43,948 bases of DNA from a virus (lineage: Duplodnaviria; Caudoviricetes): IMG/VR virus record IMGVR_UViG_3300043037_000014, positions 1 through 43,948 of that record; one strand, given 5' to 3'. Below are positions 6,764-23,721 of the stretch, one piece after another (the stretch's first letter is position 1; each line of letters opens with the position of its first letter). The translations under genes were made by a program, and so were the position numbers. Under the pieces are notes generated by a model. The model was not told the origin of the DNA, ran no database searches, and saw only the letters and a program-made list of their open reading frames with translations.

Positions 6764-6821
6764 CTTTATGCCTTTGTCTTTTAAGTCTTTTAGCTCTTAG
6801 CTGATTTTTACTTTTAGCCAT
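6711..6821 (-). CDS. Possible 36-aa Arg/Lys-rich peptide (not in ORF track)
   Basis: TAATG coupling to the ligase stop; MAKSKNQLRAKRLKRQRHKDERERDTKQNNKEIKSK. Confidence 0.4.
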   Translation of the reverse strand: MAKSKNQLRAKRLKRQRHKDERERDTKQNNKEIKSK

Positions 6822-7681
6822 TAGTCTATCTCCATAGTTTTGTCTTCTCTAACTCTAACAAAAGTAGGTTGAATATAAGTATCTATAATTTGCTCATATT
6901 CTATTTCTACAATTTTATTTATAAAACAATCTTTTGGTAACCCTCGCATACTATCATCTAGACCACTACCAACTGAGACTGTTCTACCTTCTTTATCTTG
7001 TAGAACTAAAGAGCCTATCATATCAATATATTTACCTTCACCTGGTTCAATACCTATACATAGTAAATCCGCTGTTTTACGATACTTTAATTTAATAGCT
7101 TCGTTAACACGTTTACCAGGTTGATATACATGGTTTATATGCTTAAGAAATAAGCCTTCATATCCTAAATCAACTAGTTCTTTAGCTTTACATTTAGCCA
7201 GTTCTAATTTATCTACATACTCAAAAGAGGCTAGTCTTACTTGCTCTGAACCTTTAAATATATTCACTAACCAATTATGGCGAGCTTCAAATGTCCAGTT
7301 AAGTATTATAACATCAAAAACTATAAAAGTATCACTATTAGTATCTAAACCTACATTAGCTAAACCTTTTTCAAAGTTAGTTCTATATGTAGTTAACTTA
7401 GCTGCTTTTACTCTGTCACCTAGTTTACCTTGACTACTACCTATGAATTCAGTCTCTATAATAAAGTCTAAATTTGGATTATTCTTTACTAAACTATCAG
7501 CAACTAATTCATGATAGAATTCTTTTCCTCCACTAGTGAAAAATCTAACTGAATTACCATGCTTATGTATCTGCACATAATTACCATCATATTTAATACT
7601 AGATAGCCATCCGCGTTCTAGTAGCTTAGACTTAGACACATTATCTAAGTCTTTTCCTTTACACTGCTTAATCATTGTCAA
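6821..7681 (-). CDS. lig: ATP-dependent DNA ligase
   Basis: KYDG motif I, ETEF, FDVI, YEGLFLK, KLK, OB-fold VGSGL and VEIEY. Confidence 0.92.
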   Translation of the reverse strand: MTMIKQCKGKDLDNVSKSKLLERGWLSSIKYDGNYVQIHKHGNSVRFFTSGGKEFYHELVADSLVKNNPNLDFIIETEFIGSSQGKLGDRVKAAKLTTYRTNFEKGLANVGLDTNSDTFIVFDVIILNWTFEARHNWLVNIFKGSEQVRLASFEYVDKLELAKCKAKELVDLGYEGLFLKHINHVYQPGKRVNEAIKLKYRKTADLLCIGIEPGEGKYIDMIGSLVLQDKEGRTVSVGSGLDDSMRGLPKDCFINKIVEIEYEQIIDTYIQPTFVRVREDKTMEID

Positions 7682-8198
7682 AATCCATAGTTAATTGTTT
7701 AGAAGGTTGCATATCTGCCTCTTTTATAAAGTTTCCATGAACTGTTAAATAACCTTTTCTATCTTTAATCTCTTCATAAGCTAATGTCCAGCAATGCTCA
7801 GCACTAGTTTCTAATGCCTCAGCTAAGCTATATAAAGCACTAATTAGGTCATATAGATACTCTGAAGCTTTTTTATATTCATTTGAATTTATATATTTGC
7901 ATAGTTTACTCAATGACTTAAAAACATCTTGTATAGGATTAATAGCTTTAGAAGGCCTAACATGCTTAAAAGCTATATTACCATTTATAAGAATGTTTAA
8001 GTTACAACAAACTACTAAACTATCACCTATACCATCAAAAATTCCACTATCGTTATCATCATCACACATAGCATCTAAAGTTTCACATATCTCTTCTGTA
8101 AGTTTACATACTTGTGTAATAGCTTTACCATTAGTTGTTATACCTCTATCAGCTGACCATCTTTCTGTTAATAACTGTAATTCTGCTAAACTATACAT
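7668..8198 (-). CDS. MazG-like nucleotide pyrophosphohydrolase
   Basis: W..DRGI, KLTEE..E, DGIGD..VV, AYEEIKDRKG...G.FIKE. Confidence 0.85.
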   Translation of the reverse strand: MYSLAELQLLTERWSADRGITTNGKAITQVCKLTEEICETLDAMCDDDNDSGIFDGIGDSLVVCCNLNILINGNIAFKHVRPSKAINPIQDVFKSLSKLCKYINSNEYKKASEYLYDLISALYSLAEALETSAEHCWTLAYEEIKDRKGYLTVHGNFIKEADMQPSKQLTMDFDND

Positions 8199-9168: not shown

Positions 9169-9582
9169 TTAATTAATTCTGTTGTGAATTTCTAGGTTTC
9201 TAGATTTATATAAACAGTTAAAATTATCCTTCAACCATTTAGTATCAAAATCTTTACCTTCAGCAATCTCATCATCGCTTCTAACTATATACATTATATT
9301 AGGTATAGCTAGCTTAAACGTTTTAATACCTAAGTTTATAAGTATATCATTTTTAGACTCTATAGTTATTAAATCAGCTTCCCACTTATCATCTATTGGT
9401 ATAACTCTCTCTTTTAAAACAGATTTAGGTAAACTTAAATATGTATTACGTGAGCATATACAAACTCTACCTTTTATAAGCTTTAATAAGAATGCTTTAT
9501 CAAACTCTGGTCTATTTGGTAACTCCCCATTTAAACCTACATATTTATCATTACTACTTAGTAACACTGTACCTATTATCAT
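9169..9582 (-). CDS. Divergent dihydrofolate reductase
   Basis: N-terminus VGLNGELP..PEFDKAF..LIKGR.CICSRNTYLSLP parallels the DHFR pattern IG..N.MPW..P.DL..F......IMGR.T..S; lies directly after the thyA-like gene. Confidence 0.72.
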   Translation of the reverse strand: MIIGTVLLSSNDKYVGLNGELPNRPEFDKAFLLKLIKGRVCICSRNTYLSLPKSVLKERVIPIDDKWEADLITIESKNDILINLGIKTFKLAIPNIMYIVRSDDEIAEGKDFDTKWLKDNFNCLYKSRNLEIHNRIN

Positions 9583-9583
9583 A

Positions 9584-10384
9584 TTAAGCCTTTAACTCAA
9601 ATTTTATAGCCGGTTGAGATACATAGTCACTTATTTCTATATCATTATAAGTTAAACTATGTAAACATCTAGCTTTGCGATTAATCTTAGTTGTATGCAT
9701 ATTATCTATATCTATAGCTTGCTTAAGATACTGTCTTACACCATCTAAATGCTCTTCATAGATATGTACATTACCAAGCTGCATAGTTACATTGCCAGGT
9801 AATAAATCACAATGCTTAGCAACCAAATAAACCCATAAACTTGCTAATATCATATCACTAGGTAAGCCTACCATAGTATCAACTGAGCGTTGTATCCATA
9901 CCATATCTAGTCTACCTATGCTATTAACATTAAACTGATAGGCATAATGGCAGCAAGGTAAAGATAAACTATCTAATCTATCAGGTCTCCATAGACTAAT
10001 AATATGTCTACGTGAATATGGGTTCACTTGTAACTCAAGTAATAGGTTTTCTAGCTGATTAATACCGTTAAAGTCATGTAGCTGCTTAGCATAATCTATT
10101 TCTAGATGTCCAGTATTATCAGCCCAGGTTTTCCAATAATTACAACCAACAGACTCAAATTGTTCTAACTCACTATAGTTATTTATAAATGCTATAAATT
10201 CACCAATAACTCCAGCATAGTATATTTTTCTACCTTGCAATATTGGAAAATTAGACGGATTTACAGTAAACTTTATCTGCTCACCAAATAAGCTTAGCGT
10301 ATTACCATTTCTACCTATTGTTTTATAGCCATTGGCTAAAACTTTTAAAACTAAGTCTACATAGGTTTTTTCAAATTCTTGCAT
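9584..10384 (-). CDS. thyA: Thymidylate synthase (ThyA) family enzyme, Asp177 variant (possible dCMP methylase)
   Basis: FPILQGRK, YWKTWA, SRRHII, LPCCH catalytic Cys, QRSVD...GLPSD, GNVHIY. Confidence 0.9.
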   Translation of the reverse strand: MQEFEKTYVDLVLKVLANGYKTIGRNGNTLSLFGEQIKFTVNPSNFPILQGRKIYYAGVIGEFIAFINNYSELEQFESVGCNYWKTWADNTGHLEIDYAKQLHDFNGINQLENLLLELQVNPYSRRHIISLWRPDRLDSLSLPCCHYAYQFNVNSIGRLDMVWIQRSVDTMVGLPSDMILASLWVYLVAKHCDLLPGNVTMQLGNVHIYEEHLDGVRQYLKQAIDIDNMHTTKINRKARCLHSLTYNDIEISDYVSQPAIKFELKA

Positions 10385-10740
10385 TTTGCTTCCTTATAAG
10401 ATTTTAATCTTTTTTCAAAGTCTTTTCTATCTTTATCTTCCATAGCAAATTTTCTATGTAGATAGTGTAAAGCCATAGAGTTAAAAGCTACACATACAGA
10501 ATGAGGTAAACCTGTATCAGTATCTATTATTTCACCTTTATCTATTTGCATAAGATGTCTTTCTAAAGCATTTCTATATCTACTAATATCTGACTTAGTA
10601 GCTTTTCTCCAATTATCGAAGTCATATTTATAACCACCTAATGTTAAAAGCCTAGATAAATCCTCTTTAAAATCCACGTCTATAAGTGAGGGCATAATTT
10701 TGCCATCAAGCATATCATTCTTCATAAATTTAGTTGCCAT
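10357..10740 (-). CDS. dATP/dGTP diphosphohydrolase-like protein (DUF5664)
   Basis: GK....LI, LTLGGYKY..DNWRK, RY.NAL.RHL, D.DTGLPH...AFN. Confidence 0.85.
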   Translation of the reverse strand: MATKFMKNDMLDGKIMPSLIDVDFKEDLSRLLTLGGYKYDFDNWRKATKSDISRYRNALERHLMQIDKGEIIDTDTGLPHSVCVAFNSMALHYLHRKFAMEDKDRKDFEKRLKSYKEAKCKNLKKPM

Positions 10741-12055
10741 AACCTAACTCCTTAAAAGGGTCAAATAATTCAATAGCTAAGCCATCATCCTCTTGTCTTT
10801 TTAGTTGCTTAATAGAAACTAATCTCATAGTAGTTAAAGCATCTACGAAAGTTAAACCTTTACTTTCAAAAGCTTTTACTACACCTTCCCACATTTCTAA
10901 TTCACTCATGTCTTTATTTAAAAACTTCTCAGCTTTCTTAGGTCCTATACCAGGTACACCTTTAATACCATCAGAACTATCTCCCATTATAGCTTGTAAA
11001 TAGTTAAACATTATAGCTTCAGCCTCTTCAACCTCTACAAACTTAGGTTGTATGTTATGTTGATCGGAACTATAGTAGTTAAAGTGTTTACCTGGTATAC
11101 TTTTTAATAAATCTTTATCAACGGCACACATAACAAAATTCCTATATACCTCGGCTTTACCATTAATTATCTCATAATAAATATTTTTATACTTAAATTT
11201 AATATTACTTTCACCTAACATTGTAACTATATACTCTAAGGTATTAGGATATGGCGATTTTGGGTTATCTACTAAATTTTGTTTTTTAGTATTTAGAGAT
11301 TTACTAACAAATTGAATATTGCTAGGTATATAGTGACCTAAGTAATCTATCCTATCTATTGAGCAGCCTTCAAACCATCCGTTTTCTAAGGCCCAAGTAA
11401 TATAATTATTTGGGTCCTCTACCCACGGTTTATATACTTTAATACTATTATCTTGATAATGTGCTATAGAAGGTTTGTAATTACCATAGCATCTATCTAA
11501 CATATTATCCCACTGACTATAGACCTTGGATTTACCTGTTATACTTGAGTGGTGACCAGAAATTTTCTTATTATTGCTTAATACCCTACTGTCAGCTAAA
11601 TTATTCAGCTCTTCTAATTCAGCTTTTTTAATTTTATAATCTTTCATAGCTTTATAAGCTACCATATCGTCAGCCTCATATTCAGTACAAATCATACCAG
11701 AGTAGTGTTTTAATAACTCAACTTTTATTTCATATAAACCTTCAGGTCTACGCAACCCAACTCTATTAGCCTTATAATTAGGGTCTACATCATATCTAAA
11801 ATTATAACCACTTGTAAAATAAAGTTCACAAGTTTTACAACCTGTTTGGTCCAATATCTGTTGAATTCTACCAATAGCATGGTCAACAGCATCATTTAAG
11901 TTTATAGCATATTTATCTTCATTAGCTTCAATGTCATAGTACTGATATTCACAAGCACAACAAGCCCCATAAGCTATGGTATCCGCATCTATAAGAGCTA
12001 TTTTATCATTAGGCTCCGCTTTTGGATAAAGCGTAACTTCTTCAGTTTCAAACAT
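10730..12055 (-). CDS. 5'-3' exonuclease (T7 gp6/FEN-like) with an in-frame HNH-type insertion
   Basis: LIDAD, NFR, YKANR, EADD, DKDL, GD.SDGIKGVPGIGPKKA. Confidence 0.92.
   Translation of the reverse strand: MFETEEVTLYPKAEPNDKIALIDADTIAYGACCACEYQYYDIEANEDKYAINLNDAVDHAIGRIQQILDQTGCKTCELYFTSGYNFRYDVDPNYKANRVGLRRPEGLYEIKVELLKHYSGMICTEYEADDMVAYKAMKDYKIKKAELEELNNLADSRVLSNNKKISGHHSSITGKSKVYSQWDNMLDRCYGNYKPSIAHYQDNSIKVYKPWVEDPNNYITWALENGWFEGCSIDRIDYLGHYIPSNIQFVSKSLNTKKQNLVDNPKSPYPNTLEYIVTMLGESNIKFKYKNIYYEIINGKAEVYRNFVMCAVDKDLLKSIPGKHFNYYSSDQHNIQPKFVEVEEAEAIMFNYLQAIMGDSSDGIKGVPGIGPKKAEKFLNKDMSELEMWEGVVKAFESKGLTFVDALTTMRLVSIKQLKRQEDDGLAIELFDPFKELGYGN
11141..11640 (-). mobile_element. HNH-type homing-endonuclease-like domain inserted in frame (boundaries approximate)
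   Basis: Y..W.NM..RCY, I.V..PW, WALENG, SIDRID..GHY.PSN.QF; about 165 aa between EADD and DKD. Confidence 0.75.
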
Positions 12056-12467
12056 TTGATTTCTCCCACTTTTCTACTTCTATATTATTAGTTCTTAGAT
12101 AATCTAAACCTTCTGTATTCTTCCATGTTTCATAGTATACTACACGTTTTATATTATAAAAAACTATAAGCTTTGCACAATCTATGCAAGGTGATAATGT
12201 TATATACATAGTTGCACCTGTAGTGTTTATATCATTATCCCTACAAAAATGTATAGCATTAACTTCTGCATGTATAACATTATCTAATGTACAACCTTGC
12301 TCATCAACCATAGTATTGTTAGCTAATGGTAAAGTACCATTATAGCCATTAGATATAGGTCTATCATCTTTGGTTATAACACAACCTACTTTCTTATCAG
12401 GAGCATAAGAAAACATCGCTAATTGTAATGCTTGTAGCATATAGTAATCATCATATTTACTTTCCAT
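12048..12467 (-). CDS. dCMP deaminase family protein
   Basis: VGCVI, GYNG, HAEVNAI, TLSPCIDC zinc motifs. Confidence 0.93.
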   Translation of the reverse strand: MESKYDDYYMLQALQLAMFSYAPDKKVGCVITKDDRPISNGYNGTLPLANNTMVDEQGCTLDNVIHAEVNAIHFCRDNDINTTGATMYITLSPCIDCAKLIVFYNIKRVVYYETWKNTEGLDYLRTNNIEVEKWEKSNV

Positions 12468-14153
12468 TTAAACCTCCTTACAGATTTTTGTACCATCAGA
12501 TAGAATATATTCATACTCTACTGGCATAGGTATATCTTTATAATACAACATAGGCATTTTACACATCTCTGTCCAACCTTTTTTCATATTACGTACTAAT
12601 ACTTCAGCCCAATATTCTACATCAACTTCTGGTACCCTCATATAAATAGCATCATGAACTATATTAAATATATAGTTATTAGCTCTACTATCTTCTTTAT
12701 TGATATAATGAGCACTTAACTTAGTAGTATCAGCTATACAACCTTGTGTAGCATAGTTTATTGCATCAGTACCAAGATTAGCCATACATCGTCTACCAGT
12801 AGGAGTTTCATTTGGTATAGATTTATACTCTTGCCATTTAGTATTATGATATCTAGCTATATTTTGATATTTAGTGTTATATTTTTGCTTAATAATTTTA
12901 CACTCTTCAGCAGTAAATTTAACACCATAGTTAACATAAGCATATTCTTGAAAACTATCTGCGCTCATACCAAAAATTAAGCCGAAACTAATAGCTTTAC
13001 CTTTTTGCCTATCTGCTTTTGTAATATCAGCTAATGTCTTATCAGGCATAGCTAATAAAGCCGCTAGCTTATGTAAATCGTGACCAGCTTTTAGTTCTTC
13101 GTACATAGTAGGTTCTTGCATAATACTACAACCTGCTCTTAGCTCAGCTGTTGAAAAGTCAGCATGTAAAACCACTGTTTGCACTCCATCTATTATAGCA
13201 GGTTGATGAAATATATATTGTAAATCTCTAGTTATTTGCTGAGCATTTATACTTCTATCTAAATCACCACCAGTTGATGTAAATCTTCCTGTAACAGCTC
13301 CAGATGGATTAAATCTAGTATAAATTTTAGGAAAGTTATAGCTATTTAAAAATGTTCTACGTCTTAGCTGTCTACGTTGTATGTATATAGCTTCTGCTAA
13401 GTCATTATCATTAGCTATAAGTTTAATCAATGTATTCTTATCTGTTGATGCTGTACCTAGGGCTTCTTTACATTGCTTAGGTGAATTGGGATTAAGTCCA
13501 CCAAGTTTAGTATAATAACTATCTATCTTAGTTTCTACTAAATCTAATTCTTTTCTAACGCTAGGTTGATGCACAATTAATCCATTTTGCTGGAAAGCCA
13601 TTGCATGCTTTATACTTAGTATATCTACTTTATAACTAAATATATCTCTAGCTTTTTGTATACTAAAATCTTCCCAAATTTTGGATAAAGCATATACATC
13701 AGTGGCTGAATATTTTAGCTGTACTTGTGATAAATATGCACCTTTAATAAAACCTTGCTTCTGTAAAGCTTTCTTATCTAGTCCATCATATAGATAGTCA
13801 TAACCTAGTCTAGAAACTATATTATCTAACTTATATTCTCTCCATTCAGGGTAAGCATTTCTTGCTAATAGTAGAACATCATCAAACTTATCTGTTGTCA
13901 TATTTAATGTACCAAAGTCGTAAGCACAACCTTGCCAAATAGTCCAATATGTTTTTAGCCAATTTTTAACTTCTTCTAAATCTATTATATCAGTATCTAT
14001 AATATATATCATATCATCAACTTCAGGTTGATATACTTGTATAAGCCTACAGTCTACATATAGCTTTGCCGTTTCAATATCACAAAACATAGGTTTATCT
14101 GTTACTAGGTGACTAATTTCATTTAAATCATTTATTATTTTAAATTTTATCAT
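12468..14153 (-). CDS. polA: Family A DNA polymerase with 3'-5' exonuclease domain (compact, 561 aa)
   Basis: CDIET, YSATDV, TGRF, ADFSTAELR (motif A), RQKGKAISFGLIFG (B), VHDAI (C). Confidence 0.93.
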   Translation of the reverse strand: MIKFKIINDLNEISHLVTDKPMFCDIETAKLYVDCRLIQVYQPEVDDMIYIIDTDIIDLEEVKNWLKTYWTIWQGCAYDFGTLNMTTDKFDDVLLLARNAYPEWREYKLDNIVSRLGYDYLYDGLDKKALQKQGFIKGAYLSQVQLKYSATDVYALSKIWEDFSIQKARDIFSYKVDILSIKHAMAFQQNGLIVHQPSVRKELDLVETKIDSYYTKLGGLNPNSPKQCKEALGTASTDKNTLIKLIANDNDLAEAIYIQRRQLRRRTFLNSYNFPKIYTRFNPSGAVTGRFTSTGGDLDRSINAQQITRDLQYIFHQPAIIDGVQTVVLHADFSTAELRAGCSIMQEPTMYEELKAGHDLHKLAALLAMPDKTLADITKADRQKGKAISFGLIFGMSADSFQEYAYVNYGVKFTAEECKIIKQKYNTKYQNIARYHNTKWQEYKSIPNETPTGRRCMANLGTDAINYATQGCIADTTKLSAHYINKEDSRANNYIFNIVHDAIYMRVPEVDVEYWAEVLVRNMKKGWTEMCKMPMLYYKDIPMPVEYEYILSDGTKICKEV

Positions 14154-14953: not shown

Positions 14954-15403
14954 TTACTGAGGTTTAAATCTAAAACCTTTGATTTGACTAAAGTCAGGAC
15001 CTGCAACTTTTGCAAGTTTTGCTTTAGCTTCATCAGCAGAAATGTTACCAGCTAGCATATCTTGCATAACTGCAGCTTCAGTAGCTTTCTTAACACTAAT
15101 AGCTTTCTTTCTAGCAGCTTCAGCAGCTCTAGATAAACGCTTAAGACCACCGAATTTATTACCTTCAGAAGCATCTTCATAGAAGTTATCAGCTGTAGCT
15201 TCTAACCATAGGCCACTTACAGAACATTGTAAATAAGCTTTACCATCTTTAGTTTTTGGAACATATACGTCTTCAACATTTACGCTCATACCACCTTTTT
15301 TAGGTTCAACGATTGCACTGATTTCGGCAATCAACTCTTTAGAAGCTTTATGCTTCTCTAATACTGCCACTACTTGAGTGAAAATTTCTTTTTTGCTCGC
15401 CAT
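14954..15403 (-). CDS. Basic Lys/Ala-rich hypothetical protein (149 aa), paralogue of 23281-23721
   Basis: AAGGAG RBS before ATG 15403; own promoter; shares L.KHKASK.L..E..AI..PK.GG and C..SGL. Confidence 0.85.
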   Translation of the reverse strand: MASKKEIFTQVVAVLEKHKASKELIAEISAIVEPKKGGMSVNVEDVYVPKTKDGKAYLQCSVSGLWLEATADNFYEDASEGNKFGGLKRLSRAAEAARKKAISVKKATEAAVMQDMLAGNISADEAKAKLAKVAGPDFSQIKGFRFKPQ

Positions 15404-15448
15404 TTGAGACTCCTTCAATTTTTAACGATTTATTCGTTTTATAAATAT

Positions 15449-23280: not shown

Positions 23281-23721
23281 TTAAGCAAGAGCATAGCCAA
23301 GCTTACTTAGTTCTTCGCGAACATCACTGTAGTATTTAACTTCATTTCTTAAAACTTTCAACTCTTCGGCCTCTTTAGCTTTAGCTTTGCCATTTTCTAC
23401 ATCACCCGCTAACAATAGCTTCATAGCTTCGTTATTTAACTCTTGAATAATTCTACCAGCTTTAGTCCATTTGCTTATAGCTAGCTTTGAGTAGCCTTTT
23501 GATTTACCATTACTCATAACCATTTGAGCTTCAATAACATATAAACCGCTATATCTACAATAGTGATAGTTTTTGCCATCAATAGTTCTCATAGGATTTT
23601 GAACTACACTTCCACCCGCTTTTGGTGCTAAGATAGCTTCGAGCTCTTCACTCAACTTTTTGCTTGCTTTGTGTTTAGCTAAAATTTCTTGAACTTCAGC
23701 CCATAATTTAGTTTTAGTCAT
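23281..23721 (-). CDS. Basic Lys/Ala-rich hypothetical protein (146 aa), paralogue of 14954-15403
   Basis: GGGAGG RBS; LAKHKASKKLSEELEAILAPKAGG, YCRYSGLY, LLAGDV...KAK. Confidence 0.85.
   Translation of the reverse strand: MTKTKLWAEVQEILAKHKASKKLSEELEAILAPKAGGSVVQNPMRTIDGKNYHYCRYSGLYVIEAQMVMSNGKSKGYSKLAISKWTKAGRIIQELNNEAMKLLLAGDVENGKAKAKEAEELKVLRNEVKYYSDVREELSKLGYALA

What the first reader, a model, noticed from the sequence alone, without database searches (positions are those of the whole stretch)
9584..10384. ThyA homologue with Asp in place of the uracil-selecting Asn177: predicted dCMP methylase
Seen: QRSVDTMVGLPSDMIL aligns without gaps to E. coli QRSCDVFLGLPFNIAS, so residue 177 (codon 9854-9856) is Asp. 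Established: this Asn selects dUMP, Asn-to-Asp mutants of E. coli and L. casei ThyA methylate dCMP, and T4 dCMP hydroxymethylase naturally has Asp there. The protein keeps the TS-type W..W motif and C-terminal tail and sits next to DHFR. Inference: it makes 5-methyl-dCMP. Caveat: GLPSD-type ThyAs may be common in phages and routinely annotated as plain TS.
Basis: partly seen in the sequence, partly recalled or inferred. Interest (0 to 1): 0.85.

Follow-up and report, generated by a model that had tools for sequence, protein, structure and literature searches.

The report
Phage dCMP methylase, Kafunavirus-like lineage
A small uncultured phage carries a thymidylate synthase look-alike with aspartate in place of the uracil-reading asparagine, so it likely methylates dCMP and likely builds its DNA with 5-methylcytosine; this kind of enzyme is known from other phages, but I found no report of it for this lineage, whose cultured members are labelled plain thymidylate synthase.

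Summary
Observation confirmed. Codon 9854-9856 is Asp at E. coli ThyA position 177. Cys146, Leu143 and Asp169 are kept, which points to methylation rather than hydroxymethylation. Asp177 marks a whole clade: 119 of 120 listed homologues, 78 of 80 viral loci, and cultured KF-1, PH1, VPMS1 and Amaethon. The concept is published: Xp12, and NEB virome work in which 5 of 7 Asp177 enzymes made 5mdCMP. This scan noted it in at least 15 other genomes. This lineage differs: 19% identity to Xp12's enzyme, and it keeps His147. Indirect support: a deaminase accompanies it in 20 of 24 genomes against 1 of 8 relatives lacking it. Both natural Asn177 revertants with DNA in hand lack the deaminase. Relatives carry other base-modification cassettes in the same slot. 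Mid-GC Asp177 phages deplete 0-2 palindromes, control podophages 7-22. Against: His147 is kept, the window depletes GAWTC, no kinase gene was found, and the gene replaces ThyX. Best reading (0.7): a dCMP methyltransferase giving 5mC DNA, with dTTP made by deamination. Nothing was assayed.

The parts
9584..10384 (-). ThyA-fold enzyme, 266 aa, Asp177/His147/Leu143/Asp169 (E. coli numbering); predicted dCMP C5-methyltransferase
9854..9856 (-). Asp177 codon (GAT), the base-selecting position
9947..9952 (-). Cys145-His146 codons = E. coli catalytic Cys146 and His147
9169..9582 (-). Short, divergent DHFR-like gene (137 aa); would recycle dihydrofolate; weak match
   Evidence: Pfam E 0.0086, phrog_316 E 1.2e-5; also kept beside an Asn177 revertant
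10357..10740 (-). dNTP diphosphohydrolase (PF18909); inferred dCTPase; overlaps the start of the TS gene
   Evidence: E 1.1e-18; fused to the deaminase in PH1, KF-1 and Amaethon; beside a gp42-like enzyme in G011
12048..12467 (-). dCMP/dCTP-type deaminase (PF00383), HAE and PCxxC zinc motifs intact; predicted to turn 5-methyl-dC nucleotides into dT nucleotides
   Evidence: E 9.3e-22; 36% identity to the Xp12 deaminase
7668..8198 (-). MazG-like NTP pyrophosphatase, substrate unknown
   Evidence: phrog_1992 E 5.8e-33
12468..14153 (-). Family A DNA polymerase
10730..12055 (-). 5'-3' exonuclease with an in-frame HNH-like insert; one border of the variable cassette slot
6821..7681 (-). ATP-dependent DNA ligase; other border of the slot

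Best explanation
The gene encodes a ThyA-fold enzyme with Asp at position 177 that likely methylates dCMP to 5-methyl-dCMP, so the phage likely replaces most cytosine in its DNA with 5-methylcytosine and likely makes dTTP by deaminating part of that pool. Shown: the residues, the neighbouring genes and their distribution among relatives. Inferred: Cys145 attacks dCMP, CH2-THF donates the methyl group and is oxidised to dihydrofolate, and the DHFR-like protein recycles it. The PF18909 and/or MazG pyrophosphatase turns dCTP into dCMP, which keeps plain C out of DNA. An unidentified, probably host, kinase makes 5mdCTP, the phage PolA incorporates it, and the deaminase converts part of it to dTTP. 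The purpose would be resistance to host restriction enzymes.
For: (1) Residues: D177 with L143 and D169, invariant L143/D169 in 80 of 80 viral loci, fits the published rules (PMC8670742; PMC13326640). 5 of 7 Asp177 virome enzymes made 5mdCMP in E. coli (bioRxiv 2024.12.05.627091). (2) A deaminase is in 20 of 24 genomes with this TS type and 1 of 8 capsid relatives without it, including 0 of 6 ThyX carriers, which would also gain from dUMP. (3) Natural revertants: 2 of 80 viral loci have Asn177. Neither record has a deaminase (one complete, one 49%), whereas 31 of 36 full-flank Asp177 loci do. A third revertant, P0087, nests inside the clade. (4) Depleted palindromes (O/E <0.35, expected >=6): 0-2 of 93-112 tested in 12 mid-GC Asp177 genomes, against 7-22 of 97-100 in T7, RIO-1, VpV262 and CVT22. 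Same-host pairs: CCWGG 109/77 in PH1 vs 1/64 in RIO-1; 96/72 in VPMS1 vs 0/67 in VpV262. Six of the 15 sites depleted in Asp177 genomes are GATC, which MboI and DpnII still cut in Xp12 5mC DNA. The complete revertant depletes 5 of 106, all sites of enzymes blocked on Xp12 DNA. (5) The same slot holds other base-modification cassettes in close relatives. The one cassette-free relative, G003, depletes 11 sites, including CCWGG 4/31. (6) In the GTDB scan the 9 hits at >=40% identity lie on MAG contigs of at most 46 kb; 6 have PolA or ligase nearby, two more read as phage under code 25, and one (3 kb) is too short to tell.
Against: His147 is kept (120 of 120 proteins, 80 of 80 loci), whereas Xp12 has Pro and T4 gp42 has Thr, and position 147 was the second marker of modified contigs. 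The protein is closer to canonical TS (32-36%) than to Xp12 (19%) and passes the TIGR03284 cut-off. ThyX occurs in 0 of 32 records with this TS (18 near-complete) but in 6 of 8 relatives without it, so it covers dTTP supply somehow, yet 4 of 24 genomes (VPMS1, Kolga, G004, G016) and 3 more chosen records lack the deaminase. The window depletes GAWTC (2/37) and partly CATG (57/136), although TfiI, HinfI and NlaIII are blocked on Xp12 DNA; G011, with a gp42-like enzyme, does the same. In the window's own low-GC group the counts overlap (1-8 vs 5-11), and G007 and G023 deplete CCWGG. Two Gracilibacteria-phage cassettes include a dUTPase-like gene, which makes dUMP (motif recognised by eye). No P-loop dNMP kinase was found in the window. 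2 of 7 published Asp177 enzymes showed no product. The genomes are related, so the counts are not independent, and the four controls come from other phage families.
Confidence: 0.7

Rival explanations
1. Dual-specificity enzyme: Asp177 with retained His147 lets it methylate both dCMP and dUMP, giving 5mC DNA and dTMP from one protein.
For: Mutually exclusive with ThyX; deaminase-free members exist and VPMS1 still keeps CCWGG; at least three reversions to Asn; dUTPase-like gene in two cassettes.
Against: The host can supply dTMP; the deaminase travels with 20 of 24 genomes, which a good dUMP methylase would need less.
Confidence: 0.12
2. Ordinary thymidylate synthase that tolerates Asp177; deaminase and pyrophosphatase feed it dUMP; the DNA is unmodified.
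For: His147 and the canonical fold are kept; it replaces ThyX; deaminase-pyrophosphatase fusions could make dUMP from dCTP; GAWTC and CATG depletion in the window.
Against: Asp177 switches canonical TS to dCMP (citing the 1992 papers, which I did not read). The deaminase is absent from ThyX relatives and from Asn revertants. Restriction sites are retained in mid-GC members.
Confidence: 0.09
3. It methylates dCMP only as a detour to dTTP (5mdC nucleotide, then deamination), and little 5mC reaches the DNA.
For: Replaces ThyX; the deaminase is tightly linked; no kinase gene seen.
Against: Deaminase-free Asp177 genomes would have no use for the product; site retention suggests protected DNA.
Confidence: 0.06
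4. It makes 5-hydroxymethyl- or 5-hydroxy-dCMP for later hypermodification.
For: Asp177; relatives G011 and G014 carry a gp42-like enzyme.
Against: Leu143 and Asp169 are invariant; DHFR-like neighbour; no glycosyl- or carbamoyltransferase among the 52 window ORFs scanned.
Confidence: 0.03

Closest known systems
Xanthomonas phage Xp12 deoxycytidylate methyltransferase (QNN97214.1) and relatives (PaMx74, AXL1)
   Same: ThyA fold, Asp177, Asp169; DHFR, deaminase and NTP pyrophosphatase genes nearby
   Different: 19% identity, separate branch. Xp12 has Pro147, Asn/Val at 143-144 and Phe83; this enzyme keeps His147, Leu143 and Trp83. Xp12 is a 64-kb high-GC phage; this is a 44-kb phage of 33% GC related to podoviruses.
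Asp177 TS / PRA-PH / deaminase / PolA modules of cytosine-modified virome contigs (Yang et al., eLife 2021, PMC8670742; bioRxiv 2024.12.05.627091)
   Same: Same marker residue and same neighbouring domains; same proposed route to dTTP
   Different: I could not see which sequences were tested (preprint supplement not available; no motif hit in the eLife supplements), so this clade may or may not be among them.
T4 gp42 dCMP hydroxymethylase
   Same: Asp at 177, catalytic Cys
   Different: 18% identity; Asp143, Thr147, no TS-type tail
Canonical ThyA (E. coli; TIGR03284)
   Same: Fold (TM 0.92), C146, H147, R166, S167, D169, H207, Y209, W80, W83; above the TIGR03284 cut-off
   Different: Asn177 to Asp, Phe176 to Ser, Pro145 to Cys, Lys48 to Arg; below all six PRK equivalog cut-offs listed

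Membership tests
ThyA/pyrimidine C5-modifying superfamily (PF00303) | Profile match, fold and catalytic Cys | tested here: met
   E 1.5e-62; TM 0.92; C145
Canonical dUMP thymidylate synthase | Asn177 | tested here: not met
   Asp
Canonical dUMP thymidylate synthase | His147 | tested here: met
   H146
Phage dCMP methyltransferases (functional class) | Asp177 with Asp169 and no acidic residue at 143 | tested here: met
   rules
Phage dCMP methyltransferases (functional class) | Linked deaminase and NTP pyrophosphatase genes | tested here: met
Phage dCMP methyltransferases (functional class) | Position 147 differs from His, as in Xp12 and T4 gp42 | tested here: not met
   His kept in 80 of 80 loci; Trp in a shorter sister subclade. 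The papers read differential, not obligatory.
Phage dCMP methyltransferases (functional class) | Makes 5mdCMP from dCMP | not testable with these tools
   needs an assay
Phages with C replaced by 5mC | 5mdC in virion DNA | tested here: inconclusive
   Only an indirect restriction-site signature: clear in mid-GC relatives, mixed in the window; only contigs were listed, no raw reads
Xp12/Pamexvirus enzyme clade (orthology) | Groups with Xp12 TS | tested here: not met
   19% identity; separate in the quick tree, clade support 99 SH-aLRT, long branches flagged
dCMP hydroxymethylase / 5hodCMP synthase | Acidic residue at 143, or Asn169 | tested here: not met
   L142, D169
Kafunavirus-like phage group (KF-1, PH1, VPMS1, Amaethon) | Shared major capsid protein, PolA and gene order | tested here: met
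   capsid 43-50% identity to these only; PolA 27-29%; related group, not genus-level

The most novel reading that the evidence does not exclude
An independent origin of dCMP methylation by a one-residue switch in an otherwise canonical, His147-keeping ThyA. It is ancestral in KF-1/PH1/VPMS1-like podophages, has reverted to Asn more than once with loss of the deaminase, and may work on both dCMP and dUMP. Several cultured phages, some studied for fish and crop therapy, would then carry unrecognised 5mC genomes, and the gene would be one of at least five interchangeable base-modification cassettes at one locus.
Probability: 0.3. Interest if true: 0.6.

Novelty: new member of a known kind. Interest (0 to 1): 0.38.

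Why it matters
If right, a widespread podophage group annotated as carrying plain thymidylate synthase has 5mC DNA. That changes which host defences it meets (type II restriction versus modification-dependent nucleases) and can be checked in a day on cultured phages. The Asp/Asn pairs inside one clade are a natural version of the classic N177D experiment and could show whether His147 matters. The linked deaminases belong to the class mined for 5mC-selective sequencing reagents. The chemistry itself is not new.

Tried and rejected
Literature on the DNA of the cultured relatives: searches and the KF-1/IW-1 announcement (whole text) gave no digestion or base analysis; most primary papers on these phages did not appear in the library. 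A motif search gave only unrelated papers. Hardy and Nalivaika 1992 is not held. My first guess, Zobellviridae, was dropped: the capsid hits are only the KF-1/PH1 group; RIO-1, VpV262 and CVT22 served as controls. ThyX relatives failed as unmodified controls, because four of the five carry other modification cassettes. No pooled statistic of 5mC-blocked versus 5mC-cut sites was computed; depleted sites were sorted by reading the published table, so no p-value is claimed. A cellular genome using this type as its only TS was sought: the two Gracilibacteria hits are phage-like, and their bins hold another ThyA or weak ThyX-like hits. The residue 143/147 columns were misparsed and are replaced. 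The careful tree did not finish; only the quick tree is used. Sequencing runs: no RNA holder listed; of 4 of 21 runs laid, two gave no cover, one gave only short pieces, and X7 lists no change at 9854-9856, with 6 differences not shown. Host not identified.

Full report
Setting. The window is a complete 43.9-kb virus record with a 127-base terminal repeat and 33% GC. Its capsid protein matches over full length only PH1, KF-1, IW-1, ETP-1, ZHX, VPMS1, Amaethon and two Manatee Spring genomes among 50,697 phage records (43-50%). The same nine phages are the top hits of the TS (38-44%). The host is unknown; an Rz-like spanin hit suggests a Gram-negative one. Near-identical DNA occurs in shale-gas, oil-facility, sludge and wastewater runs.

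Observation. Confirmed. Asp177 (GAT, 9854-9856) faces E. coli Asn177 in an ungapped block anchored by R166, S167, D169, G173, H207 and Y209. The model matches E. coli TS at TM about 0.92. Asp is a clade trait: 119 of 120 listed homologues (of 644 found), 78 of 80 viral loci (best 80 of 206), and the six GenBank phages I translated (PH1, VPMS1, Amaethon, KF-1, ctXG1253, Kolga); GVE2 has Asn.

Active site. Published rules: Asp177 selects cytosine, an acidic residue at 143 gives hydroxymethyl, Asn169 gives hydroxyl (PMC13326640, passages and section 28; PMC8670742, passages). This protein has D177, L143 and D169, so the predicted product is 5-methyl-dCMP. The discordant residue is His147. It is kept here, is Pro in Xp12 and Thr in T4 gp42, and was the second differential position in modified contigs. 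Single N-to-D mutants that keep His are reported to methylate dCMP (citing Hardy 1992 and Liu 1992, neither read). I recall, unverified, that removing that His improves dCMP selectivity. A shorter sister subclade has Trp there. The quick tree puts the clade (support 99) apart from Xp12, gp42 and canonical TS, which suggests an independent switch; long branches make the deep order unsure.

Gene context. From PolA: deaminase, 5'-3' exonuclease, PF18909 pyrophosphatase, TS, DHFR-like, HTH, 3'-5' exonuclease, MazG-like, ligase. Xp12 has pyrophosphatase, TS, deaminase and DHFR in a row. PH1, KF-1 and Amaethon have TS, a pyrophosphatase and a deaminase-PF18909 fusion. A deaminase is found in 20 of 24 genomes with this TS and 1 of 8 capsid relatives without it. 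ThyX shows the mirror pattern: 0 of 32 records (18 near-complete) against 6 of 8. So the gene set supplies dTTP. That fits either a plain TS or the route proposed for Xp12-type phages, in which deaminating 5mdCTP removes the need for a second TS. The absence of the deaminase from all 6 ThyX carriers favours the second.

Natural revertants. L241 (G034, complete) and L259 (G035, 49% complete) have Asn177 in otherwise typical clade motifs. Neither has a deaminase, against 31 of 36 full-flank Asp177 loci. G034 keeps the DHFR-like gene, and no pyrophosphatase was detected within 6 kb. Two cases only, but the direction is what a return to dUMP would predict.

A cassette slot. Between the 5'-3' exonuclease and the ligase, close relatives (capsid 67-75%) carry different sets. 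G011 has a gp42-like enzyme with a carbamoyltransferase, the system of Yang 2021, and G014 a similar enzyme. G005 has another Asp177 enzyme with a C5-methylase homologue. G002 has a second ThyX-like gene with a deoxyribosyltransferase and an HD nucleotidase; G009 has a second ThyX-like hit. G010 and G015 have 7-deazaguanine-type genes, named by eye from motifs. G003 has none. The Asp177 set thus occupies a DNA-modification slot.

Restriction-site signature. Counting all 4-6-letter palindromes with expected >=6 and O/E <0.35: 12 mid-GC Asp177 genomes deplete 0-2 of 93-112; T7, RIO-1, VpV262 and CVT22 deplete 14, 10, 22 and 7 of 97-100; Xp12 (50 of 64 kb) depletes 3. PH1 and RIO-1 share a host species, as do VPMS1 and VpV262; CCWGG is 109/77 vs 1/64 and 96/72 vs 0/67, and CTGCAG 21/20 vs 0/12 and 24/22 vs 0/18. 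Of the 15 sites depleted in the Asp177 set, 6 are GATC, which MboI and DpnII cut even in fully 5mC Xp12 DNA; 2 are sites whose enzymes were blocked (PMC7653180 supplement). Revertant G034 depletes 5 sites and G035 depletes 2, all of the blocked kind. For the window itself the signal is mixed: it keeps GGCC 24/25, CCWGG 20/25, CTGCAG 13/10 and AGCT 442/414, but depletes GATC 1/105, GATATC 3/16 and GAWTC 2/37, with CATG at 57/136, although TfiI and NlaIII are blocked on Xp12 DNA. Low-GC Asp177 genomes deplete 1-8 sites (G007 and G023 include CCWGG) and ThyX or TS-free relatives 5-11. The controls are from other families and hosts differ, so this is supporting evidence, not proof.

Mechanism. Most likely (0.7) a dCMP methyltransferase feeding 5mdCTP into DNA, with dTTP from deamination and dCTP removed by a pyrophosphatase. 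Only the residues and gene distributions are shown; each catalytic step is inferred. No kinase was found. Rivals: dual specificity (0.12), ordinary TS (0.09), detour to dTTP without modified DNA (0.06), hydroxymethylase (0.03).

Known or new. Natural Asp177 dCMP methylases are in print: Xp12, and 5 of 7 virome enzymes tested in vivo, with the same TS/PRA-PH/deaminase/PolA neighbourhood (bioRxiv 2024.12.05.627091; parts 1-3 of 11, passages and section 20 read; its supplement was not seen and may hold this clade). I found no statement that KF-1-like phages are modified (PMC8472413, PMC9206674 and PMC5175136 passages; PMC3569283 whole text). Earlier notes of this scan report the same residue switch in at least 15 other genomes, none found by sequence likeness to this protein. 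Verdict: a new member of a known kind, interest 0.38. What it adds is a distinct His147-keeping lineage with cultured members and natural revertants, which makes the test cheap.

Noticed in passing
G002:C1:14472-16563 (L189:362-2453); second ThyX-like hit also at G009:C1:29603-30085: A second, divergent ThyX-like gene (291 aa) with DUF6378, a nucleoside 2-deoxyribosyltransferase and a YfbR/HD nucleotidase sits in the modification slot, while a canonical ThyX lies elsewhere. I did not match it to a described pathway; candidate unknown base substitution.
   Followed up: partly
L135:3412-8146 (G010); L138:3985-7783 (G015): 7-deazaguanine-type gene set (QueD/QueE/QueC/FolE-like, named by eye) in the same slot.
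   Followed up: partly
L163:707-3498 (G011): gp42-like enzyme, GNAT and carbamoyltransferase beside PF18909: probable 5-carbamoyloxymethylcytosine cassette, with ThyX elsewhere.
   Followed up: partly
L104:791-2858 (G005): Divergent Asp177 TS homologue followed by a C5 DNA-methylase homologue.
   Followed up: partly
window 10730-12055 (-), residues about 160-323: The 5'-3' exonuclease carries an in-frame HNH-like insert (phrog_374, E 4e-18) absent from relatives' exonucleases; no obvious intein ends by eye; intron, fusion or homing element unresolved.
   Followed up: no
L198:4820-7615; L199:4902-7608: TGA=Gly recoded phage-like contigs in Gracilibacteria MAGs carry dUTPase-like, PF18909-like, Asp177 TS, deaminase and DHFR-like genes in a row.
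   Followed up: partly
L096-L101 (G007, G008, G012, G013, G023, G024): A shorter (about 232-239 aa) sister subclade has Asp177 but Trp at position 147; some members deplete CCWGG.
   Followed up: no
L001:8354-9103; L003:8391-8990; L004:8344-8952: 'Hypothetical proteins' of PH1, Amaethon and KF-1 are deaminase-PF18909 fusions.
   Followed up: partly
window 14954-15418 and 23281-23721 (-): Two unannotated proteins that look paralogous by eye, resembling a conserved protein upstream of the SSB gene in G011.
   Followed up: no
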